A stretch of DNA of 14,967 nucleotides. Source: a virus. The translations under genes and the position numbers were made by a program. The notes under the pieces were generated by a model, which searched no databases, was not told the origin of the DNA, and was given only the letters and a program-made list of their open reading frames with translations. Where the stretch lies: the UHGV virus genome UHGV-1809322, one strand, 5' to 3'. This document shows, piece after piece, positions 5,381-12,722 of this stretch (position 1 is the first letter of the stretch; each line of letters starts with the position of its first letter).

Positions 5381-6910
5381 TTACTTGGGGTTCTGAATTT
5401 GTGTATACGTTGCTCTTGAGATAAACGGCGCATTATCACCAATTGACGTGATTAATACCGTCGGTATGCCATTTTTCAACTCATCTTCTTTACCCAGCGT
5501 CCAGGTAATTACAGCCGTGTTGTTTGCGATTGGGATCGCATTCACGCCAGGGAGTTTAGGTATATTCGTTAGCAACTCATTGGCTTCAATTTCCGCCTGA
5601 GTCTTCACAGTAGTCCATTTACCTGAAACTTCGTCCACTCGTTCTTTTATGTCAGCCAATGCAGGAAATGCCTGCTCTGTTAATTTGCCTGCTGCGTCTT
5701 TTACATAGGGTATATCGGCAAGACAACTAACATTTCTGGCAGAAATACACCCCACCGTTTCCGCTGCAGTGCTTAAAGTGGGATTACCTTTTACAATCTC
5801 ATTCACCGAATTTTGCGCATCCTGAATGAGTACGTTGCCTGAGGACTTGAGGAATGCGTCAGTTATTGCCTGCTCATCACCACCAGCTGCAGCAACAGCA
5901 ACTCCGCCTACAGCGCCCGCAATGGCGGCTTTCTTGACGACCTCTGTGATTGTGCCTGTCGGCATACCATTAACAATAGAACCGCCTTGTTGTTGCACCG
6001 CCGCAAGAACACCTGCACGTATAGCGGCATTTATGTCACCGGTCATTCGCAGGGTTTTCCATGATGCAATGGCTGCCGCGCCAGCCGGTCCTCCATAAAA
6101 CGCGGCTGCAGACGTAGCAGCCATATCCAGGACGTGACTTTCCTGAGTTGCTTTGAAAAAATTATCTTCAGTATTATGAAGTGGTGCCACTGTAGTGGAC
6201 CAGATCGCATCAATTATTTTACCTTCACGGGCCTGATTCTCGGCTTTCTTCAATAACTCATACTGTGCACTCAATTCATTCCCAGCAAAGTGCGCAATAG
6301 CTGTACCAGCTTCAGTAATATCGTTAAAACTTCTTTGAGCTTGATTGCTAATGTCTTTCCACGCTTTGTCGTAAGTGCTGGCAATATCATCGAACGCTTT
6401 TACAAACGTTCTCGTTGCATTATCGACTGTTTTCTTAACCACTTCGATTTGGCGGCTTGTTTCGCCAACAACTATTTTAGACACGGCACCAACTGTGTCT
6501 TTAAATGGGTCCGTGCCACTATTAGAACCAAATACCTGATCCCAAGTAGGTAAATTGGGCAGATTCGGTAGATTGGGTAAGTTAGGTAAATTAGGTAGAT
6601 TAGGTAAGTTGGGCAGATTGGGTAATTTAGGGAGATTTGGTAGTTGAGGAAGACCAGGAATATCCGGGAGACCCAAAAGGCCAAATTTTTGCATCTGCTG
6701 CAGATGCATTCGCTCAGAGATATTGCTTTCTGTAGTCTGTGTTGGTTGTGGCTGCTGAGGTAGTGAAGCAGAGGAATAGGCATAACCTGGTGAGCATATG
6801 ATTGTTATATTTGGAATCATCACTGTTTTTGCATCCTCTGCAAATGATAATCCCGGCCCCAGCGCAAGAGCGATTGCACTTAACTGCATAAACCTGTTGG
6901 TACTTTTCAT
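5381..6910 (-). CDS. Secreted repeat-containing protein (509 aa): signal peptide, (Leu-Pro-Asn)n proline-rich tandem repeat linker, large C-terminal domain with Gly/Ala-rich hydrophobic segments
   Basis: SD GGGGAGGG ~9 nt upstream of the ATG. Signal peptide MKSTNRFMQLSAIALALGPGLSFA followed by EDAK. Repeat GLPDIPGLPQLPNLPKLPNLPNLPNLPNLPNLPNLPNLPNLPT. Hydrophobic Gly/Ala-rich stretches (ATSAAAFYGGPAGAAAIASW; KKAAIAGAVGGVAVAAAGG). Confidence 0.75.
   Translation of the reverse strand: MKSTNRFMQLSAIALALGPGLSFAEDAKTVMIPNITIICSPGYAYSSASLPQQPQPTQTTESNISERMHLQQMQKFGLLGLPDIPGLPQLPNLPKLPNLPNLPNLPNLPNLPNLPNLPNLPTWDQVFGSNSGTDPFKDTVGAVSKIVVGETSRQIEVVKKTVDNATRTFVKAFDDIASTYDKAWKDISNQAQRSFNDITEAGTAIAHFAGNELSAQYELLKKAENQAREGKIIDAIWSTTVAPLHNTEDNFFKATQESHVLDMAATSAAAFYGGPAGAAAIASWKTLRMTGDINAAIRAGVLAAVQQQGGSIVNGMPTGTITEVVKKAAIAGAVGGVAVAAAGGDEQAITDAFLKSSGNVLIQDAQNSVNEIVKGNPTLSTAAETVGCISARNVSCLADIPYVKDAAGKLTEQAFPALADIKERVDEVSGKWTTVKTQAEIEANELLTNIPKLPGVNAIPIANNTAVITWTLGKEDELKNGIPTVLITSIGDNAPFISRATYTQIQNPK
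6549..6647 (-). repeat. Imperfect 9-bp tandem repeat array (~11 units, GGYARRTTN on the + strand) encoding the (LPN)n tract of the 509-aa protein
   Basis: Consecutive units ggtaaattg, ggcagattc, ggtagattg, ggtaagtta, ggtaaatta, ggtagatta, ggtaagttg, ggcagattg, ggtaattta, gggagattt, ggtagttga. Most unit-to-unit differences are synonymous in the minus-strand frame. Confidence 0.9.
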
Positions 6911-7126: not shown

Positions 7127-7411
7127 ATGCCCTTCATCGGAATACAAGGCTCTCTGTGCTCAGGCCATGGAGGCTTCCCTCCCCGGCCCGCTCTTTCTGG
7201 TGCCCCTCTGGTAACCATCAACGGAATTCCCGCCCTGGTAAATGGCAACCCCTTCGCCGTACACAGTGACGGTGACAGCGCCCACGGTGGCGTAGCTATC
7301 TCATCGCGCCCCTGGTGCACAATAAACGGGATTGGCGTGGTCTGTACCGGGGATCTCGTGTCGTGTGGTTCTGTCGTCATAACTGGCGATCCACTGGTCA
7401 CCATTTCATGA
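7127..7411 (+). CDS. PAAR-like repeat protein (94 aa); putative spike-tip (sharpening cone) protein of a contractile tail or injection apparatus
   Basis: Small protein with the repeated pattern typical of PAAR domains: C.GHGG, PLVTINGIPAL, GDSAHGG, TINGIGVVCTGDLVSCGSVVITGDPLVTI. SD is weak. Confidence 0.5.
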   Translation: MPFIGIQGSLCSGHGGFPPRPALSGAPLVTINGIPALVNGNPFAVHSDGDSAHGGVAISSRPWCTINGIGVVCTGDLVSCGSVVITGDPLVTIS

Positions 7412-7426
7412 GTTTACGAGGCCACT

Positions 7427-8182
7427 ATGCTCGATCAGCAATACCAAATTGACGCGTTTTACGCATTACGGGCCGCTGGTGGGTTAAAAACCCCGGAGTC
7501 CATTACGCTGTATCAGTCATCTATCACTCAGATCAACCGGCTGGTGGATGCAACAGCGGCACTCACACCAGATTCAATCCGATACCCCGCCGCTATACGC
7601 CCACTGGTATCCCGCCTTGATGCCATATCTGAAGACCTGCTGGATTCAGTAAAGCAAATTAAAGAGGTGATAAAACTGCTACAGGACCAGTCTGACCCGT
7701 CGGCCCTGCTAACCATTCAGATCGGCTGGGAGGTGTATTGCCGGTTCAACGAACTGACCGCTAACCCCGCAATTGTTGCGTTCATCGCGGATACAGAACT
7801 CCCGCAATCCATACTGACGACACTCACCAGTTTGTCCACGGCAGACCTGAATGCGTCCTTTGCGGTCCTGAACAACACAGTAATAGCGGGTGAGGGTACG
7901 CCACTGTTTGAGGTTCCTGCCGATGTGCTTGATGCTGCAGTGGACGCAATAACCGAATTTGAAGGCGATGTTCAGTCATACCAGGAATTGCTGGTGGCCG
8001 TAGAACGGGAGAAACAGGCGGCATTGACCAGCATTCAGATAGCAATGAGCTATTTCCAGAACGGCGTCACAGTGAGCATCCTCGATACCCTCTCACACGG
8101 CACATTTGTAGCGCCAGCTGTTGCCTGCATCGTACCTCAGACCGTGCTTGATGCGCTCGCTGCAGGGACCGTAACGGCGTAA
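7427..8182 (+). CDS. Hypothetical protein (251 aa), predicted largely helical; structural-module protein of unknown function
   Basis: Start 16 bp after the PAAR-like stop, with a GAGG SD. Ala/Leu/Thr-rich composition. No recognisable catalytic motif. Confidence 0.55.
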   Translation: MLDQQYQIDAFYALRAAGGLKTPESITLYQSSITQINRLVDATAALTPDSIRYPAAIRPLVSRLDAISEDLLDSVKQIKEVIKLLQDQSDPSALLTIQIGWEVYCRFNELTANPAIVAFIADTELPQSILTTLTSLSTADLNASFAVLNNTVIAGEGTPLFEVPADVLDAAVDAITEFEGDVQSYQELLVAVEREKQAALTSIQIAMSYFQNGVTVSILDTLSHGTFVAPAVACIVPQTVLDALAAGTVTA

Positions 8183-8272
8183 CGCCATAACTCCCAGCGG
8201 TGCACTTTCTCTATTCTGCTCGCGTCTTGTGCGTTGAGCGATAACGCGAGTTTGAATAGAAAAGAGGCCATC

Positions 8273-10087
8273 ATGTCAGATATTACCCCATATATGGATC
8301 AGGTCGCGGATATTCGCCAACGCGCCGCCCGCGTGCTCGCGTTTGCCAGCATTCCGCAATTCAAAGAAGGTGCATTCATCAAGGATCGAAAAGCCTGGGC
8401 TAAATCGATCGGCGAAGCCACTCACATGGACCCCCTTTTTGAATCCTACGGTCCAATTGTTTCCACCATTGTTGGTACCGCGTGGGCAAGCGCCCTGGCG
8501 GATTACGCTAACGAACGAGGTGAAATGCCGCGCGACGAACTGCTCGCCGCAGCGCATAAGGCCACGGAAAACCTGCTTCTGGAAGGCGCAAGTAAGTACA
8601 AAAACCAGAGCGTGCAGCTGCTGCTTGAAAGCGCGCAGAAAGATCTGAACGAAAACAAATTCCTGTTTGAGTCTGCGGATTCAGCCAACATTCCGGATCT
8701 GACCACCAGCCAGGGCATTATGCAGCTGGCTACGTTTGTGGCCATGATCCTGCCCGTTGCGCTCGGCGCACAGACCAGCGATGCGTGTACATTCGTACCG
8801 TGTGAGAAAGACCAGAACAAAATCTTCGAAATCATCAATATCGCCGGTAACTCATTCGGTGACCTGACCGCCGGTCAGGAAATTGATATGACCACCTCTG
8901 GTTATTACTCCCAGATGGCCCGTGTTCGCCTGTTCGCTGCAGATCAGCAGCCGAAGGGGACCAAACAGCGTCTGACATTCAAAGTTGAGGAAAGTGAGGG
9001 CGTTAAAGCGCCAATTCGCCCGAAACGTACCGTTCTGTACATCAACCGCAAGCCGACTGACCCGGACACAGGCAATAACGTGCTACTGCACAGTTTTGTG
9101 CATGTTGATAAAGACACGGGCGAAGAAAGCTCCATCACCCTCACCTGCCAGATCAACTATGACACAGGTGAGATCGCAGTTAACCCGTCCAACCCGTTCC
9201 CGGAAGGTTATGAGCTTGGCGTCGGTTACGAGCTGGACGTTGAAAAAGCACCGTCCCTTATCCCGACGATCAACCACAAAATGAAGGACTACCTGATTTA
9301 TCCTTCATTCTACGCGCTGGCAGCTGAACACACGCTGATTGCAGAACTGGAAATGCGCCGTGAGTTCAACTTTGAGTTGAGTTCCCTGTCATACCGTAGC
9401 CTGCGTGATTACATCTCGCACGAAATCGACATGATGCGCCTGTCCATCATGATCTGGCGTTGCATTCACGGTAGTAGCTATGATGTCGCCCTGCCGGATA
9501 GCCAGTTGTTTGAAAGCTGGTCTGGCCTACTGCGCAGTAAATTCAACCGGATTTCCGCCGACATGATTGACCGCACCCGGACCACCGGCGTAACTGGCAT
9601 GTACGCAGGTTCTGAAGCGTCGAATTTCATCAAGGCATTGCCGCCGACACTGTTCCAGCCAGCCCCGAATTACCGCCAGACGCCATATGTCCATTTCACG
9701 GGCACGCTCTTCGGTGTCTACAAAGTATTTGAGGTGCCACAGCCAATCTGTACGTCGCTGACGAAAAACCTCAAGAAAAACGGTGCTGAATTCAAGACCA
9801 ACAACATCCTCTGCTATGGCCGTGGTGATGGTATCGCTCAGGCGGGCTTTATTGCCGGTGATGCCATTCCGTTGATCCCGCTGGTACACGACACCACCCC
9901 GCAACTGCGCAACCGTACCACCATGTTCGGCAGCGCATTGAACATGATTCACCCACGCCGTGGTGAAGACTATTTCGAAATGCTGGAACTGACGTTCGAC
10001 AAAGCAGGCGCACTGGATCCCCGAAGCGGGAAATACATTGAACCTGCTCCGACCCCGGAACCTGAAGAAGTCACTCAGGCACCGTAA
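8273..10087 (+). CDS. Large hypothetical virion-module protein (~604 aa)
   Basis: Track ORF begins at a TTG at 8234. The ATG at 8273 is preceded by AAAAGAGG at optimal spacing and is the more plausible start (MSDITPYMDQ…). Long uninterrupted ORF with a Pro/Glu-rich C-terminal tail (EPAPTPEPEEVTQAP). Confidence 0.65.
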   Translation: MSDITPYMDQVADIRQRAARVLAFASIPQFKEGAFIKDRKAWAKSIGEATHMDPLFESYGPIVSTIVGTAWASALADYANERGEMPRDELLAAAHKATENLLLEGASKYKNQSVQLLLESAQKDLNENKFLFESADSANIPDLTTSQGIMQLATFVAMILPVALGAQTSDACTFVPCEKDQNKIFEIINIAGNSFGDLTAGQEIDMTTSGYYSQMARVRLFAADQQPKGTKQRLTFKVEESEGVKAPIRPKRTVLYINRKPTDPDTGNNVLLHSFVHVDKDTGEESSITLTCQINYDTGEIAVNPSNPFPEGYELGVGYELDVEKAPSLIPTINHKMKDYLIYPSFYALAAEHTLIAELEMRREFNFELSSLSYRSLRDYISHEIDMMRLSIMIWRCIHGSSYDVALPDSQLFESWSGLLRSKFNRISADMIDRTRTTGVTGMYAGSEASNFIKALPPTLFQPAPNYRQTPYVHFTGTLFGVYKVFEVPQPICTSLTKNLKKNGAEFKTNNILCYGRGDGIAQAGFIAGDAIPLIPLVHDTTPQLRNRTTMFGSALNMIHPRRGEDYFEMLELTFDKAGALDPRSGKYIEPAPTPEPEEVTQAP

Positions 10088-10107
10088 TTCAGCGAAATAT
10101 TCACAGC

Positions 10108-10126
10108 GCCCCGGCAAGGTCGGGGC
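10108..10126 (+). promoter_or_regulatory. GC-rich stem-loop (GCCCCG-gcaaggt-CGGGGC) just upstream of the SD of the next gene
   Basis: 6-bp all-GC stem with a 7-nt loop in the 50-bp intergenic gap, immediately 5' of the AGGAG SD for the gene starting at 10138. No U-tract, so not a classical terminator. Confidence 0.3.
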
Positions 10127-10137
10127 CAGGAGAAATC

Positions 10138-11910
10138 ATGGAAATTCCGTTTAGTCAGTCAAATGTGAGTAATGTGTCAATTGCTCGTGTTAACGCCGAA
10201 AACACCACGATCCTGAATGCGGGCGGTAACAGTTCTGTATTTGCGGGTATTGTCGTGTGTAACAGTGGCACACCGTATGAAGTGCTGGAAATTAACAGTA
10301 CCAATTTGTATACCAAACTGGGTGTACCAGCGCATCCCACCGATGGTTATTGCGCTGAACCTATGCGCCATCTGGAAGAGGCAGTCACGGGTGGCAAGGG
10401 CTATGTTGTGCGAGTCACCGCAGCCGATGCTAAATTCCCGCTTCTGAAATGGTCGATGCCTGCGGCGTCTGAACCGGCCCAGCCGCAGAATCCGACGGCT
10501 GAAGGCGCTACCGAGGGTACCAGTGAAAATGCAGCAGAAACACCAATCGTTGAAACGCCGAAGCTGAAAAATTCCGGCAAAAAGACAACTGGTGGCGCGT
10601 TACTGAAAGCGGGATCTGATACTGAAACTGCAGGTCCAATCCCCTACGCTATTAACACGAGCGCACTGGAATACGGCGCTGATGTATCAGCTAATTTCAG
10701 CGAAAACGACATCGTAATGCTGTATGTCATTGACGGTAATCCGTCGACGACACGTAACGTTCGATTCACGCCGGACGCATTCAACGATAAGCGCCTGGTT
10801 CTGACACTGACGGAAACCAGTGCGCTTGGTGTAGTCACCACCCTCGATAGCTATACGGTATCTCTGTATACCGACGTAACCGATGATCACGGCTCCCCGG
10901 CCTGGATTGAAACGCAACTGGAGAGTAAATCCCGTTATCTGCGTGCCGTAGCGAAACCTAACCCGACGGGCGATTACGCTGATGCCACGGTCCGCCTGGT
11001 GGCAGATAAGGGCGCCACATTCTTTGTGGGTGGCACGAACGGTGATCAGAACAACATTCCTGCCGAAAATTATGGGCGGGCACTGAAGGCGCTTCGTAAT
11101 ACACAGGCATATTACTCTGCAATGCTGGGACTGGGCTGTTACAGCCGTGCGGTGCTCAATGAGTTGAGTGAAATTGCGCGCAACCGTCGTATTGACGCGT
11201 TTTTCGACATTGATCCACGCCTTTCGTATGCTGAAGCCCTGGAAAAGAGTGATGAATACAACTTCATGGATCATGAACACATCGCTTTCTATCACTTCCC
11301 GTACACCTACCGCGACAAAACATCAAAAGCGACAACGGTCGCCGGTTTGTCAGGCACCGCATTCAGAGCTAAGGCTGCTGGCGTTCAAAAAATCCCGAGC
11401 ATCGGCGGTTGGCATTACTCCCCGGCAGGTGAAGAGCGCGCCGTTATCAATCGCGACAATATGAAGTGCGCGTCCTGGGCGGGTGAACCCGACTACGACA
11501 TGATGTACATCAAACGCATCAATAAAGTCGCGACGTCCCGCACTGGCGTGATGACGATTGACGACTCGCTGACGGCCTATCGTCGCGAGAACAGCCTGCG
11601 CCTACAGCACGTCAACTCTACGATGAACGCCATCGCGCGCGACCTGTACACCCTGTGGGGTTCAATTAAACATGACCCTGACAACGAGGTGCTAAACAAT
11701 CTCACGCGCGATACTCCCCGAGTCTTCGATAGCTACGTCGCCAGTAAAGCCCTCGTGCCTCCAACTGAGGACACAGCTGGTAATACTGACCCGTACATCA
11801 TTTCCTACGAACAAAACACCGATGATATGTGGACCGTCACATACAGTTGCTGCGTGACCGGTACAGCCCGCCGCATCGCTGGTATTCCGATCCTGTTGAG
11901 AAAAGGATAA
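10138..11910 (+). CDS. Putative contractile tail sheath protein (590 aa); assignment tentative
   Basis: Strong SD (CAGGAGAAATC-ATG). The N-terminal region (…NVSIARVNAENTTILNAGGNSSVFAGIVVCNSGTPYEVLEINSTNLY…) resembles the small-residue pattern I recall at sheath N-termini. Size is in the sheath range. It sits in an operon with a PAAR-like gene. Confidence 0.45.
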   Translation: MEIPFSQSNVSNVSIARVNAENTTILNAGGNSSVFAGIVVCNSGTPYEVLEINSTNLYTKLGVPAHPTDGYCAEPMRHLEEAVTGGKGYVVRVTAADAKFPLLKWSMPAASEPAQPQNPTAEGATEGTSENAAETPIVETPKLKNSGKKTTGGALLKAGSDTETAGPIPYAINTSALEYGADVSANFSENDIVMLYVIDGNPSTTRNVRFTPDAFNDKRLVLTLTETSALGVVTTLDSYTVSLYTDVTDDHGSPAWIETQLESKSRYLRAVAKPNPTGDYADATVRLVADKGATFFVGGTNGDQNNIPAENYGRALKALRNTQAYYSAMLGLGCYSRAVLNELSEIARNRRIDAFFDIDPRLSYAEALEKSDEYNFMDHEHIAFYHFPYTYRDKTSKATTVAGLSGTAFRAKAAGVQKIPSIGGWHYSPAGEERAVINRDNMKCASWAGEPDYDMMYIKRINKVATSRTGVMTIDDSLTAYRRENSLRLQHVNSTMNAIARDLYTLWGSIKHDPDNEVLNNLTRDTPRVFDSYVASKALVPPTEDTAGNTDPYIISYEQNTDDMWTVTYSCCVTGTARRIAGIPILLRKG

Positions 11911-11914
11911 TCCG

Positions 11915-12691
11915 ATGAACAAGTTTGAAACCGGCGCTTTTCAGGCGCGCGCGCAAATGCTGGTGGAGGGAGCACTTCCAAAGGGGGAAATAACACCCCC
12001 TCCGCAGCCAGTAGTCCCCCTGCCGCGTACCCTGATCACTGAAGCTGATGCAGATAACGCACTGCTGAATATGTTGCTTGAGGCTGTAGCCAAGAAATCC
12101 AGCCAGGACGGACGTGGCGAAGCAGCAGCTGCCGTTCTGGAGTGGGCGGAATCGGGTGACGCGACATGGGATTCATTCGATTCAATAGCGTTCGGCATTG
12201 CGCTGGAGATGGAAGGCTTTGATCTGGACGAAGTGGGCGAGGATGACATCACAGAAGATGTTATCAGCACTTACAACGATGTCCTCGCTGACATGGCTGA
12301 CGCTGCAGTCTTCTTTGGTGCCTCCAGTAGCGATGTCGCAACAATGATTGACGAAGAGGACGACGATGCCGCCGCCAGCGTCATGAACAGCATCGGTGAC
12401 ATTGATGACGATGAAGCCGAAGACCTGATCACCACCTTTACTGTGGGAGACGATATCTATGAGTCTATCCGGAAAACAGAAACAGACGATAGTCAGATGC
12501 TTCTTGAAGCTACTAAAAAAGTTGTTCGAAACGGGAAAGTCAAACTGATCAAAAAACGTATTCGCCCGAAAAAACTCAACAGCGCCCAGCGTTCCGCACT
12601 GAAAAAGGCACGTCGCAAAGCCAATACCAGTGCAGCGAAAGTAAAGCGTAAAAAGTCGATGAAACTACGCAGAAAACGTTTCGGCGGCTAA
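11915..12691 (+). CDS. Bipolar protein (258 aa): strongly acidic central region and polybasic C-terminal tail; candidate scaffold, internal or DNA-binding virion protein
   Basis: Acidic runs (EEDDDAAAS…DIDDDEAEDL) followed by a C-terminal ~45 aa rich in Lys/Arg (KKRIRPKKLNSAQRSALKKARRKANTSAAKVKRKKSMKLRRKRFGG). Start is 4 bp after the preceding stop. Confidence 0.65.
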   Translation: MNKFETGAFQARAQMLVEGALPKGEITPPPQPVVPLPRTLITEADADNALLNMLLEAVAKKSSQDGRGEAAAAVLEWAESGDATWDSFDSIAFGIALEMEGFDLDEVGEDDITEDVISTYNDVLADMADAAVFFGASSSDVATMIDEEDDDAAASVMNSIGDIDDDEAEDLITTFTVGDDIYESIRKTETDDSQMLLEATKKVVRNGKVKLIKKRIRPKKLNSAQRSALKKARRKANTSAAKVKRKKSMKLRRKRFGG

Positions 12692-12697
12692 TGCATC

Positions 12698-12722
12698 TGC
12701 CACCAGTCTGAGGCTGGTGGCA
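12698..12722 (+). promoter_or_regulatory. Intergenic stem-loop (GCCACCAG-N7-CTGGTGGC) after the 258-aa gene; possible partial terminator, mRNA processing or stability element
   Basis: 8-9 bp perfect stem with a 7-nt loop, 7 bp after the stop codon, with no following T-run. The right arm contains a Chi octamer (GCTGGTGG). Confidence 0.3.

What the first reader, a model, noticed from the sequence alone, without database searches (positions are those of the whole stretch)
11915..12691. Protein with acidic core and ~45-residue polybasic C-terminal tail in the structural operon
Extreme charge segregation (Asp/Glu-rich centre, Lys/Arg-rich tail) is unusual. Possible roles are a scaffolding protein, an internal or ejected DNA-binding protein, or a nucleic-acid chaperone packaged in the virion. 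It is followed by a stable intergenic hairpin (12698-12722) that may set the stoichiometry of downstream genes.
Basis: partly seen in the sequence, partly recalled or inferred. Interest (0 to 1): 0.45.

Follow-up and report, generated by a model that had tools for sequence, protein, structure and literature searches.

The report
Protease-cut head protein releasing basic peptide
This gene is the counterpart of the classical but uncharacterised phage P1 gene 21, and its sequence suggests a protein that enters the immature phage head and is cut there by the head-maturation protease, freeing a 60-residue strongly basic peptide from an acidic carrier domain. That would move a gene long annotated as a tail gene to the head.

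Summary
ORF 11915-12691 encodes 258 aa in which residues 41-198 have net charge -40 and residues 199-258 have net charge +27 with no acidic residue (0 of 20,000 shuffles as segregated). The 11-bp hairpin at 12698-12722 is present.

The protein is the orthologue of phage P1 gp21 (PHROG 1053). This family has at least 636 clusters at 50% identity, no curated domain and no structural relative. P1 annotates gp21 as "baseplate or tail tube", yet it is missing from the P1 virion proteome and from the list of proteins modelled by cryo-EM.

New finding: the family carries short conserved motifs, hydrophobic-hydrophobic-Glu|Ser/Ala/Gly. They sit in its disordered N-terminus and exactly at the acid/base boundary (LVE18|G, LLE56|A, LLE198|A). 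This is the same motif as the experimentally mapped maturation cut of the P1 capsid protein (AMLE120|S).

Where a lineage's capsid site has Asp, or Ala, instead of Glu, the gp21 motifs change the same way (36 site pairs, none discordant). Tail proteins lack the motif.

Best reading: a precursor inside the prohead, processed by the prohead protease, that releases a polybasic peptide. Cleavage, location in the head and the peptide's role are inferred, not shown. I call it a new variant of a known kind (processed head core or internal proteins).

The parts
11915..12691 (+). CDS of 258 aa plus stop. Orthologue of phage P1 gene 21 (PHROG 1053 family).
   Evidence: PHROG 1053 at E = 4e-59. 43% identity to P1 gp21 over residues 60-241. 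Gene order MCP-sheath-gp21-PmgG-BplB is conserved in more than 100 loci.
11915..11968 (+). Predicted N-terminal propeptide, residues 1-18 (MNKFETGAFQARAQMLVE). It holds the family motif N-x-F-x-x-G-x-F and ends at the predicted cleavage site LVE18|G19.
   Evidence: E18 is at least 90% conserved in an otherwise variable N-terminus. AF2 pLDDT is below 50 at residues 19-22. M1-N2-K3-G7-F9 are shared with the DarB N-terminus, whose capsid-targeting signal maps to residues 6-10. The targeting role is inferred.
11969..12082 (+). Linker, residues 19-56. Pro-rich and low-confidence at first, then the start of the helical domain. It ends at the second conserved motif, LLE56|A57.
   Evidence: Family consensus 'LILEA' at this column. 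D-type lineages have ILD|A or ILD|D here. The site lies inside a predicted helix, so its use is less certain.
12083..12508 (+). Acidic helical domain, residues 57-198 (net -36, 15.2 kDa). It ends at the predicted cleavage site LLE198|A199.
12497..12511 (+). C-site motif M-L-L-E198|A199 at the acid/base boundary, 3-4 residues before the basic module.
   Evidence: A hydrophobic-x-E/D-S/A/G/T/N motif lies within 14 residues upstream of the basic module in 111 of 127 family representatives. The residue before the cut matches the residue in the same genome's capsid-protein maturation site in 36 of 36 distinct site pairs (32 E/E, 2 A/A, 1 A/S, 1 D/D). pLDDT is below 50 over residues 189-200.
12509..12688 (+). 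Polybasic module, residues 199-258 (net +27, 6.9 kDa, pI 12). Beta-hairpin 200-213 plus two helices 223-235 and 239-256. Predicted mature peptide.
12698..12722 (+). Intergenic hairpin: 11-bp stem, 3-nt loop, no U-tract. It starts 6 nt after the stop codon.
   Evidence: -18.7 kcal/mol. Positionally conserved in 35 of 59 distinct related loci with 24 distinct stems, against 63 of 1,180 control windows. Function not tested.
10108..10126 (+). Second GC-rich hairpin (8-bp stem) between the capsid and sheath genes. Together the two hairpins bracket the sheath-gp21 pair.
   Evidence: Fold of 10088-10137: GCCCCGGC-aag-GUCGGGGC; the whole stretch folds at -15.8 kcal/mol.
8234..10087 (+). Major capsid protein (P1 gp23-like). 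Its N-terminal propeptide carries the reference protease motifs: LFE|S, LLE|G, LLLE|SA (aligned to P1 E120|S121) and LFE|SA.
   Evidence: PHROG 1014 at E = 5e-153. Alignment to the P1 gp23 cleavage site. Motif density is 1.53 per 100 aa in the first 170 residues, against 0.06 in the mature part.
10138..11910 (+). Tail sheath gene (P1 gp22-like), immediately upstream with a 4-nt spacer.
   Evidence: PHROG 1036 at E = 6e-118. The sheath-then-gp21 adjacency is kept even in the rearranged Psychrobacter locus L119.

Best explanation
The gene encodes a precursor protein that works inside the immature phage head (prohead).

Shown:
- It is the orthologue of phage P1 gp21.
- It has four parts: a short N-terminal segment; a variable, partly disordered linker; an acidic helical domain; and a conserved 60-residue polybasic mini-domain.
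- It carries two to three conserved copies of the motif hydrophobic-hydrophobic-Glu|Ser/Ala/Gly. One copy lies exactly at the acid/base junction.
- This is the motif at which the P1 major capsid protein is known to be cut during head maturation.
- The residue before the cut changes in step (Glu, Asp, or Ala/Ser) in the capsid protein and in this protein across phage lineages.

Inferred:
1. The full-length protein (net -12) is made late together with the capsid and sheath proteins. Its acidic domain masks the basic module, which keeps the protein soluble and off nucleic acid.
2. The protein is taken into the assembling prohead, possibly through its N-terminal segment, which resembles the DarB capsid-targeting signal.
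3. The prohead protease (the P1 Pro orthologue) cuts after E18, probably after E56, and after E198.
4. The acidic fragments leave, or are displaced as DNA enters, as happens to T4 core-protein fragments.
5. The basic peptide (residues 199-258, net +27) stays behind, bound to the packaged DNA or to the inner capsid wall. It may enter the host with the DNA.

Whether its main task is charge neutralisation or condensation of DNA, or anchoring a scaffold-like acidic domain to the shell until cleavage, is not decided by the data.
For: Homology and context:
- Family and synteny.
- The P1 capsid protein is cut at AMLE120|S121, determined by Edman sequencing (Gonzales 2022, PMC9024508). I located that site in the sequence.

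Conservation of the motifs:
- E18, E198 and A199 are at least 90% conserved, although they sit in the least ordered parts of the AF2 model (pLDDT below 50 at residues 19-22 and 189-200).
- A C-site motif lies within 14 residues upstream of the basic module (3-4 residues before it in the window protein) in 111 of 127 representatives.

Co-variation with the capsid site:
- Of 36 distinct capsid-site/gp21-site pairs, 32 are E/E, 2 are A/A (L018, L097), 1 is A/S (L114) and 1 is D/D (L104/L105). None is discordant. The implied 2x2 exact p (E vs non-E) is 1/C(36,4) = about 1.7e-5, worked out by hand from these counts; the only Fisher test actually run (before the register fix) gave p = 0.02.
- The neighbouring positions track as well: AMFE|SA with AMFE|AP, GVFE|SA with PVFE|AT, LIAE|NA with LITE|GV.

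Co-variation within the protein:
- Members with E at the C-site have 2.23 upstream E-motifs and 0.52 D-motifs per protein.
- Members with D at the C-site have 0.33 E-motifs and 2.83 D-motifs.

Specificity control, motif density per 100 aa:
- Capsid propeptide 1.53 and gp21 family 1.21.
- Mature capsid protein, sheath, PmgG, BplB, PmgC and Tub 0.05-0.29.
- In the Ala-type lineages the E-motif falls to 0 and the Ala-motif rises to 1.76 (capsid propeptide) and 1.01 (gp21) only in those two proteins.

Other P1 head proteins fit the motif:
- DarA has DLLE68|A69 exactly where its cryo-EM model begins.
- P1 Pro has 8 copies, and its homologues average 5.2, several recurring at the same places in the alignment consensus and in the homologues I read.

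Module behaviour:
- Where the basic module is internal or duplicated, motifs flank it on both sides, for example DLTE|NSKVVVRNG...KRRIGE|S.

Precedent:
- T4 gp21 protease cuts core and internal proteins at L/I-x-E| (PMC9026906).

Fit with the absence of P1 gp21 from virion data:
- All four good tryptic peptides of P1 gp21 lie in, or span, the predicted removed or cleaved parts.
- The basic peptide yields only fragments of 7 aa or fewer.

Gene neighbourhood:
- In Psychrobacter locus L119 the gene is followed by an Hdf-like head-internal protein gene.
Against: - No direct evidence of cleavage or of head location exists for any family member.
- The P1 record annotates gene 21 as 'baseplate or tail tube'. 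From my own knowledge this comes from electron microscopy of amber mutants. I could not read the primary papers.
- The gene sits between the sheath gene and the tube-initiator genes. In SP-15-like phages it lies in the neck and tail-completion block.
- The motif is only 3-4 residues long.
- The non-Glu classes probably represent only two or three independent evolutionary events, so the exact p-value overstates independence.
- I could not retrieve the protease genes of the Asp- and Ala-type lineages to see whether they changed too.
- Site 2 (E56|A57) lies inside a confidently predicted helix.
- The similarity of the N-terminus to the DarB signal rests on five residues.
- If gene 21 is truly essential in P1 and its mutants make normal heads, a pure scaffold role is unlikely.
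Confidence: 0.6

Rival explanations
1. Tail morphogenesis factor, as the P1 record says. The protein would be a non-virion assembly chaperone or catalyst needed to build the baseplate or start the tail tube. For example, its basic module might transiently occupy the acidic lumen of tube-like rings, or its acidic domain might hold sheath or tube subunits.
For: - P1 gene 21 is annotated 'baseplate or tail tube'.
- The gene lies directly after the sheath gene (4-nt spacer) and before PmgG and BplB in more than 100 loci. The sheath-gp21 adjacency survives rearrangement in L119.
- Absence from the virion proteome and cryo-EM model fits a chaperone.
Against: - It does not explain why the protein carries the capsid maturation motif at conserved, disordered positions, nor why those motifs switch from Glu to Asp or Ala together with the capsid site while all real tail proteins lack the motif.
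- No tube, baseplate or known chaperone fold was found.
- It is not between the tube and tape-measure genes, and there is no frameshift pair. PmgB already fills the chaperone position.
- The amber phenotype could be polarity on pmgG and bplB, which lie downstream in the same operon and whose loss gives exactly a no-tail phenotype. This is my inference.
Confidence: 0.15
2. A true scaffolding protein of the P22 gp8 type. The acidic helical body would form the internal scaffold, and the basic C-terminal helix hairpin would be the coat-binding domain. Protease cleavage at E198 would then simply detach the scaffold from the shell, and the basic peptide would have no role with DNA.
For: - Helical acidic body plus a basic C-terminal helix-turn-helix, which from my own knowledge resembles the P22 scaffold's coat-binding domain.
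- No separate scaffold has been identified in P1 (PMC9024508; PMC12810830).
- Protease motifs as in the best explanation.
- The gene lies in the same hairpin-bracketed, presumably highly expressed unit as the sheath gene.
Against: - P1-like capsid proteins already carry a roughly 120-residue cleaved N-terminal scaffolding domain, and Pro has a coiled-coil tail.
- The module is duplicated in tandem in some members. That suits multivalent nucleic-acid binding better than a single coat-docking domain.
- The P1 annotation (baseplate or tail tube) does not place the gene-21 amber defect in the head (I could not read the primary EM description).
- No sequence or fold similarity to any known scaffold.
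Confidence: 0.25
3. A cytoplasmic nucleic-acid-binding protein that never enters the capsid, for example an RNA chaperone, a translational regulator of the late operon, or a DNA-end binder. On this view the motif similarity is a coincidence of composition.
For: - A conserved RNA hairpin lies immediately downstream.
Against: - No hit to any RNA- or DNA-binding family, even at E = 10.
- It does not explain motif conservation, motif position or co-variation with the capsid site.
- The hairpin is absent from many lineages that keep the protein.
Confidence: 0.05
4. A decoy or timing substrate of the prohead protease. The protein would enter the prohead mainly to occupy the protease and delay capsid cleavage, or to buffer charge, and both fragments would be discarded.
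For: The same motif evidence as the best explanation. Absence from virions.
Against: The strongest sequence conservation lies in the basic module itself, with invariant G207, Q225, L229, K231, A232 and R245. That is unexpected for a disposable decoy. Modules flanked on both sides by sites suggest that the peptide is the product.
Confidence: 0.07

Closest known systems
Phage P1 gp21 (gene 21, YP_006524; PHROG 1053)
   Same: Orthologue: 43% identity over residues 60-241. Same acidic-core and basic-tail architecture, the same three motif positions, and the same place in the operon between the sheath gene and pmgG.
   Different: This protein lacks the Pro/Ala-rich repeat linker of P1 gp21 and is 13 residues shorter. 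The window phage is only distantly related to P1 at the DNA level: megablast finds no hit. The function of P1 gp21 is itself unknown beyond the annotation 'baseplate or tail tube'.
T4 prohead core and internal proteins processed by gp21 protease (gp22, gp67, gp68, IPI-III, Alt)
   Same: A short L/I-x-E| type motif. An N-terminal propeptide or targeting sequence is removed. Acidic core proteins are cut into fragments that leave the head, while basic internal proteins stay with the DNA (PMC9026906). The motif class and the predicted processing logic match.
   Different: No sequence or fold similarity. In T4 the acidic scaffold and the basic internal proteins are separate gene products. Here an acidic domain and a basic peptide are joined in one precursor and separated by a cleavage site. 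The T4 proteins are encoded next to the protease and capsid genes. This gene follows the sheath gene.
Adenovirus core-protein precursors pVII and pre-Mu (pX), cut by the adenoviral protease (my own knowledge)
   Same: A strongly basic, DNA-condensing peptide is released inside the capsid from a precursor by the maturation protease.
   Different: Unrelated virus, protease class and sequences. The analogy is functional only. DNA binding by the phage peptide is untested.
P22 scaffolding protein gp8 (C-terminal basic helix-loop-helix coat-binding domain; my own knowledge)
   Same: A helical, acidic protein with a small basic helix hairpin at the C-terminus. Absent from mature virions.
   Different: P22 gp8 is not proteolysed; it is recycled. 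No homology. The module here also has a beta-hairpin and far higher charge (+27 in 60 residues).
P1 Dar proteins (DarA, DarB): head-internal proteins with N-terminal targeting or processing
   Same: DarA has the same motif (DLLE68|A69) at its processed end. The DarB capsid-targeting residues 6-10 (MGVFR) resemble the gp21-family N-terminal G-x-F motif.
   Different: No homology outside these few residues. The Dar proteins are large, are detected in virions and have anti-restriction functions. The Dar proteins are not among the essential genes reported by Gonzales et al..

Membership tests
P1 gp21 / PHROG 1053 family | Significant full-length sequence similarity to family members | tested here: met
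   PHROG 1053 at E = 4e-59 over residues 50-255. tblastn to P1 gp21 gives 43% identity, E = 5e-12. A profile search finds 636 representatives at E <= 1e-3.
P1 gp21 / PHROG 1053 family | Architecture: variable N-terminus, acidic helical domain, then a conserved basic module K-V-V-R-x-G-K-V...Q-K-x-A-L-K-K-A-R | tested here: met
   Alignments A1 and A2. Charge partition is conserved in all homologues checked.
P1 gp21 / PHROG 1053 family | Position in the late operon: capsid - sheath - gp21 - PmgG - BplB | tested here: met
   This order is seen in the window and in more than 100 related loci.
Prohead-protease-processed head core or internal proteins (T4 gp22/IP type) | Carries the recognition motif of the cognate prohead protease at accessible positions | tested here: met
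   LVE18|G and LLE198|A lie in segments with pLDDT below 50. The motif equals the P1 gp23 site AMLE|S. Density is 1.21 per 100 aa, against 0.05-0.29 in tail proteins.
Prohead-protease-processed head core or internal proteins (T4 gp22/IP type) | The motif co-evolves with the protease's other substrates | tested here: met
   36 of 36 distinct capsid-site/gp21-site pairs are concordant, including the D/D, A/A and A/S classes. Within-protein co-variation is shown.
Prohead-protease-processed head core or internal proteins (T4 gp22/IP type) | Physically present in proheads and actually cleaved during maturation | not testable with these tools
   Needs prohead biochemistry or mass spectrometry. The published P1 proteome was tryptic and was done on mature virions only.
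Prohead-protease-processed head core or internal proteins (T4 gp22/IP type) | N-terminal capsid-targeting sequence | tested here: inconclusive
   There is a conserved N-terminal N-x-F-x-x-G-x-F motif. M1, N2, K3, G7 and F9 are shared with DarB, whose signal maps to residues 6-10. That is too few residues for a test.
Phage scaffolding proteins (P22 gp8 type) | Sequence or fold homology to a known scaffolding protein | tested here: not met
Phage scaffolding proteins (P22 gp8 type) | Required for correct procapsid assembly | not testable with these tools
   The P1 annotation places the gene 21 defect in the tail rather than the head. I could not read the primary data.
Tail tube or baseplate structural proteins (the P1 record's annotation) | Tube-like or baseplate fold, or family match | tested here: not met
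Tail tube or baseplate structural proteins (the P1 record's annotation) | Present in the assembled tail | tested here: not met
   From the literature only: P1 gp21 is absent from the virion proteome table (gene 56 is missing between 55 and 57) and from the list of proteins modelled by cryo-EM.
Tail assembly chaperones (lambda gpG/GT, P2 gpE/E+E' type) | Located between the tube and tape-measure genes, with a programmed frameshift product | tested here: not met
   The gene lies between the sheath gene and PmgG. The PmgB-like gene occupies the position before the tape measure in related loci. No overlapping frameshift ORF is listed.
Rho-independent terminators (for the hairpin 12698-12722) | GC-rich stem followed by a U-tract | tested here: not met
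   The stem is present, but it is followed by AATTCAAC. It was not found by the terminator scan. Only 2 of 35 related hairpins have a T-rich tail.

The most novel reading that the evidence does not exclude
The 60-residue polybasic module would be a so far unseen component of the mature virion in P1-like phages, and in SP-15-like Bacillus and Listeria phages. On this reading the maturation protease excises it from an acidic pro-domain, it stays bound to the packaged DNA, and it is delivered with the DNA. That would make it a phage counterpart of the adenovirus Mu and protein VII peptides. P1 gene 21 would then have been assigned to the tail for forty years because its amber mutations are polar on the downstream tube genes. 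In addition, the P1-like prohead proteases would fall into Glu-, Asp- and Ala/Ser-specific classes whose substrates have co-evolved with them.
Probability: 0.35. Interest if true: 0.75.

Novelty: new variant of a known kind. Interest (0 to 1): 0.6.

Why it matters
P1 is a classical model phage, and its virion has recently been described by proteomics and by near-complete cryo-EM. Gene 21 has still been left without a role.

If this reading is right, several things follow:
- A conserved, probably abundant late protein moves from the tail to the head.
- P1-like heads contain, or at least use, a processed acidic-plus-basic precursor that standard tryptic proteomics and icosahedral reconstruction could not detect.
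- A family of more than 600 sequence clusters, spread across Proteobacteria, Desulfovibrionaceae, a Phycisphaeraceae (Planctomycetota) MAG and, through SP-15-like phages, Bacillus and Listeria hosts, gains a first functional hypothesis.

The co-variation between the capsid cleavage site and other substrates is also a general, purely computational way to list the substrates of a prohead protease. P1 is already proposed as a protein-delivery vehicle through capsid-targeting signals, so a second natural cargo with defined processing sites would be of practical use.

Tried and rejected
Searches that found nothing:
- Pfam and NCBIfam on the whole protein, on the module alone and on multi-module homologues gave no family, even at E = 10.
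- A PDB sequence-profile search gave only chance hits.
- Foldseek against viral models found only the SP-15 homologue.
- The composition-only resemblance to basic ribosomal proteins I dropped, because no family hit supports it.

Context and synteny:
- Megablast of the operon against phage genomes found no match, so the window is not a close P1 relative.
- BLASTP between the genes downstream of the family member in P1-like and in SP-15-like phages showed no similarity. I therefore could not show a conserved downstream partner.
- tblastn with two distant family members (P0126, P0170) found no further cultured phages.

Literature:
- Lobocka 2004 and Walker & Walker 1983 are not held, so the exact gene 21 mutant phenotype is unverified.
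- No virion proteomics exists in the SP-15 paper or in the Xanthomonas phage paper (PMC13478112) that also mentions ABMM1 and JK004.

Ideas revised or abandoned:
- I first thought that absence from the P1 proteome merely reflected poor tryptic peptides. In fact P1 gp21 has four good tryptic peptides. Absence is informative for the intact protein, but not for the basic peptide.
- My first automatic scoring of the C-site had register errors. I redid it on an alignment column.
- Alignment A3 was too divergent for a collection scan.
- I tried to recover the protease genes of the Asp- and Ala-type lineages. Every Pro homologue I retrieved was Glu-type.
- The terminator reading of the hairpin is rejected for this window because there is no U-tract.
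Full report
**1. The observation**

The window is a late morphogenetic operon of a P1-like phage or phage-plasmid. On the + strand it encodes:
- a PAAR-like protein (7127-7411);
- a PHROG 1559 protein (7427-8182);
- the major capsid protein (8234-10087, PHROG 1014, P1 gp23-like);
- the tail sheath (10138-11910);
- the ORF in question (11915-12691);
- then PmgG-, BplB-, PmgC- and Tub-like tail and neck proteins.

The ORF encodes 258 residues. Residues 41-198 contain 45 Asp/Glu against 5 Lys/Arg (net -40). Residues 199-258 contain 27 Lys/Arg and no acidic residue (net +27). A charge-segregation statistic is 66, against 16.2 +/- 4.2 in 20,000 shuffles, and no shuffle reaches it.

The hairpin at 12698-12722 has an 11-bp stem and a 3-nt loop, at -18.7 kcal/mol. 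Both parts of the observation are confirmed.

**2. What the protein is related to**

The protein matches PHROG 1053 ('unknown function') at E = 4e-59. It is 43% identical to phage P1 gp21, which the P1 record annotates as 'baseplate or tail tube'. There is no Pfam or NCBIfam match and no match to any solved structure by sequence.

A profile search of 1.84 billion cluster representatives finds 636 family members. Related loci come from:
- Enterobacterales, Vibrio, Shewanella, Pseudoalteromonas and Psychrobacter;
- Desulfovibrionaceae and a Phycisphaeraceae MAG;
- more distantly, Bacillus phages SP-15 and HSE3 and Listeria phage LIS04.

In more than 100 P1-like loci the gene order is capsid - sheath - gp21 - PmgG - BplB. 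In the SP-15 group the gene instead follows the gp13-like neck gene. In a rearranged Psychrobacter locus it still follows the sheath gene and is itself followed by an Hdf-like head-internal gene.

**3. Anatomy**

The basic module is the most conserved part of the family. Its consensus is LEA-KKVVRNGKVKLIKKR-R-KR-L--AQK-ALKKARRKANTSAAK--RKKSMK-R-KR-G, with G207, Q225, L229, K231, A232 and R245 invariant. The acidic part is conserved mainly in composition, plus W77, G135 and D149.

AlphaFold2 with the family alignment gives a mean pLDDT of 81.9:
- a helical acidic domain (43-190, pLDDT 85-96);
- a beta-hairpin (200-213);
- two helices (223-235 and 239-256, pLDDT 93-95);
- two segments below pLDDT 50, at 19-22 and 189-200.

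**4. What is known for P1 gp21**

- The P1 virion proteome (Gonzales et al. 2022, PMC9024508) lists genes 54, 55, 57 and 58 but not 56 (gp21).
- The 2026 cryo-EM study that modelled nearly all P1 virion proteins does not mention gp21 (PMC12810830).
- Both papers state that no separate scaffolding protein is known in P1. They attribute scaffolding to the roughly 120-residue N-terminal domain of gp23, which is removed at E120|S121.
- I could not obtain Walker & Walker 1983 or Lobocka 2004. The 'baseplate or tail tube' phenotype therefore rests on the GenBank note alone.

**5. The key result: protease motifs**

The experimentally mapped P1 capsid site reads A-M-L-E|S-V. P1 gp21 has:
- Q-L-M-E|S-A near its N-terminus;
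- M-I-L-E|A-A at the start of the acidic domain;
- M-L-T-E|A-F four residues before the basic module.

The window protein has M-L-V-E18|G-A, M-L-L-E56|A-V and M-L-L-E198|A-T at the same places.

E18, E198 and A199 are at least 90% conserved in alignment A1. The first and third sites coincide with the two lowest-confidence segments of the model. A conserved short motif in a disordered segment is what a protease site looks like. In 111 of 127 family representatives where the module could be located, such a motif lies within 14 residues upstream of it.

**6. Co-variation**

For each distinct locus I aligned the capsid protein's N-terminal part and read the column of P1 E120. I then read the column of window E198 in the gp21 homologue. 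Of 36 distinct site pairs:
- 32 are Glu/Glu;
- two are Ala/Ala (L018: LMLA|SA with LMLA|AV; L097, Pseudoalteromonas: MMLA|SA with MMLA|AT);
- one is Ala/Ser (L114, Vibrio sonorensis: MMLA|AV with LILS|AT);
- one is Asp/Asp (L104/L105, Vibrio owensii: AILD|SA with LVLD|AT).

None is discordant. A 2x2 exact test on these counts would give p = 1/C(36,4) = about 1.7e-5; I worked this out by hand and did not re-run the test (the Fisher test, before the register fix, gave p = 0.02). The non-Glu cases probably represent only two or three independent events.

The neighbouring positions also track each other (AMFE|SA with AMFE|AP; GVFE|SA with PVFE|AT; LIAE|NA with LITE|GV). The upstream motifs of the same proteins switch in the same way.

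Across 114 family representatives, those with Glu at the C-site average 2.23 upstream Glu-motifs and 0.52 Asp-motifs. Those with Asp at the C-site average 0.33 and 2.83.

**7. Negative control**

Density of hydrophobic-hydrophobic-Glu-[Ser/Ala/Gly] per 100 residues:

| Protein | Density |
|---|---|
| Capsid propeptide (first 170 residues) | 1.53 |
| gp21 family | 1.21 |
| Mature capsid protein | 0.06 |
| Sheath | 0.05 |
| PmgG | 0.05 |
| BplB | 0.05 |
| Tub | 0.12 |
| PmgC | 0.29 |

In the Ala-type lineages the Glu-motif falls to zero and the Ala-motif rises to 1.76 and 1.01, only in the capsid propeptide and gp21.

**8. Other P1 head proteins fit the motif**

- DarA has D-L-L-E68|A69 exactly where its cryo-EM model begins. 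The authors inferred removal of residues 1-69.
- P1 Pro has eight copies. 120 Pro homologues average 5.2 copies, several recurring at the same places in the alignment consensus and in the seven homologues I read, as expected for autoprocessing.
- The T4 prohead protease cuts at L/I-x-E|. It was first seen at a Glu-Ala bond in the scaffold protein gp22. It chops core proteins into fragments that leave the head, and removes N-terminal propeptides from proteins that stay (PMC9026906).
- From my own knowledge, the Ala|Ser class resembles the herpesvirus assemblin consensus. Assemblin belongs to the same protease superfamily.

**9. The module as a product**

Where the basic module is internal rather than C-terminal, motifs flank it on both sides:
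- P0056 (SP-15 group): ...DLTE|NSKVVVRNG...KRRIGE|S...
- P0194: MILE|SG...LIGE|G and VDE|T...KIGE|S
- P0170: a second module preceded by VVE|A.

So the C-terminus of the module is set either by the stop codon or by another cleavage motif. This suggests that the excised basic peptide is the functional product.

**10. Proposed mechanism**

The steps from here on are inferred. The full-length protein has a net charge of -12, so the acidic domain over-compensates the basic module. It is made from the same hairpin-bracketed mRNA segment as the sheath protein.

It enters the assembling prohead, possibly through its N-terminal segment. Window MNKFETGAF and DarB MNKLSMGVF share M1, N2, K3, G7 and F9, and the DarB capsid-targeting signal maps to residues 6-10. 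This is weak evidence.

The protease then cuts after E18, perhaps after E56, and after E198. The products are:

| Fragment | Net charge | Mass |
|---|---|---|
| 1-18 | 0 | about 2.1 kDa |
| 19-56 | -3 | about 4.0 kDa |
| 57-198 | -36 | 15.2 kDa |
| 199-258 | +27 | 6.9 kDa |

The acidic pieces leave or are displaced by incoming DNA. The basic peptide stays on the DNA or on the inner shell.

This model explains why P1 gp21 was not seen in virions. Its four usable tryptic peptides lie in, or span, the removed or cut regions, and the basic peptide gives only fragments of 7 residues or fewer.

It does not explain the 'tail' annotation. My suggestion is that amber mutations in gene 21 are polar on pmgG and bplB. 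These genes lie downstream in the operon, were not defined genetically, and in the case of pmgG give a no-tail phenotype when lost. This suggestion is untested.

**11. The hairpin**

A GC-rich hairpin begins within about 10 nt of the stop codon in 35 of 59 distinct related downstream regions. It has 24 different stem sequences. The control rate is 63 of 1,180 random windows (examples). This pattern of compensatory change supports selection for the RNA structure.

The hairpin is confined to the enterobacterial-type lineages. It is absent from the Vibrio, Desulfovibrio and SP-15 groups. Only two of the 35 have a T-rich tail, and the window's has none, so it is not a canonical terminator.

A similar hairpin follows the capsid gene at 10108-10126. 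A role in differential mRNA stability or partial termination is plausible but unshown. The major tube protein, needed in about 312 copies in P1, is encoded downstream, which argues against simple strong attenuation.

**12. Verdict**

The protein is not a known enzyme or a tail structural fold. It is a member of the uncharacterised P1 gp21 family.

The comparative evidence points to a prohead-internal, protease-processed precursor that releases a polybasic peptide. I give about 0.6 to the whole account, and somewhat more to the bare claim that it is a protease substrate. This is a new variant of a known kind of system. The claim is directly testable by non-tryptic mass spectrometry and by a non-polar deletion in P1.

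Noticed in passing
L018, L097, L114 (Ala/Ser type); L104/L105 (Asp type); all other loci (Glu type): P1-like phages fall into at least three classes by the residue before the capsid maturation cut: Glu, Asp, or Ala/Ser. All motif copies in the capsid propeptide and in gp21 switch together. From my own knowledge, the Ala|Ser class looks like the herpesvirus assemblin consensus.
   Followed up: partly
L122:5015-6034 (P1 pro) and homologues P0202-P0321, L123-L202: P1 Pro carries 8 copies of the cleavage motif, and its homologues average 5.2. Several copies recur at the same places in the consensus and in the homologues I read (HPAMMLE|SA, AMFE|S). This suggests autoprocessing of a protease fused to a coiled-coil tail. 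Pfam does not recognise P1 Pro as Peptidase_S77, whereas the SP-15-group protease is recognised.
   Followed up: partly
window and related loci: mature capsid protein, sheath, PmgG, BplB, Tub: The cleavage motif is about 10- to 30-fold rarer in the mature capsid protein and most tail proteins (0.05-0.12 per 100 aa; PmgC 0.29, about 5-fold) than in the capsid propeptide and gp21 (1.53 and 1.21). I did not compare these values with a composition-based expectation.
   Followed up: partly
window 10108-10126: A second GC-rich hairpin with an 8-bp stem and no U-tract lies between the capsid and sheath genes. With the hairpin after gp21 it brackets the sheath-gp21 pair.
   Followed up: partly
P0170, P0171, P0194 (family representatives); P0056 / SP15_037: Some family members carry two basic modules in one polypeptide, or an internal module followed by a further acidic region. 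Cleavage motifs flank these modules, which is a polyprotein-like arrangement.
   Followed up: partly
P0151, P0164, P0126 (family representatives): The N-terminal disordered regions of some members contain four to six tandem copies of the motif (for example ILD|NA, VLD|NA, VLD|NA, VLD|DA, VLD|AA). This recalls the redundant cleavage sites described for giant-phage propeptides.
   Followed up: no
window 5381-6910 (- strand), tandem repeat at 6547-6643: A 509-aa protein with an apparent signal sequence contains a run of about ten P-N-L tripeptide repeats, encoded by a 9-bp tandem repeat. A 197-aa protein with an N-terminal hydrophobic segment is encoded just downstream of it on the - strand (4758-5351). 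Neither has a useful family match, and both lie between the regulatory genes and the structural operon.
   Followed up: no
window 82-2316 (+): A 744-aa double DNA methyltransferase combines C5-cytosine-like and Dam-like parts, as in P1 Dmt. The PHROG 116 match starts at profile position 337, so the N-terminal part may lie outside the window or be truncated. Unlike the corresponding region of P1 (from my own knowledge), no tRNA genes are found anywhere in the window.
   Followed up: partly
window 7127-7411 (+) and 7427-8182 (+): A PAAR-motif protein of 94 aa (from my own knowledge, possibly the counterpart of the P1 spike-tip protein UpfC) and a 251-aa acidic protein of unknown function (PHROG 1559) sit directly upstream of the capsid gene. 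The 251-aa gene is detected in only some lineages (about 17 of the 122 sources scanned).
   Followed up: no
L119 (Psychrobacter MAG) 1643-2545: A 300-aa family member has an extra basic C-terminal extension after the module. It sits in a rearranged cluster: sheath - gp21-like - Hdf-like - ... - baseplate - tube.
   Followed up: partly
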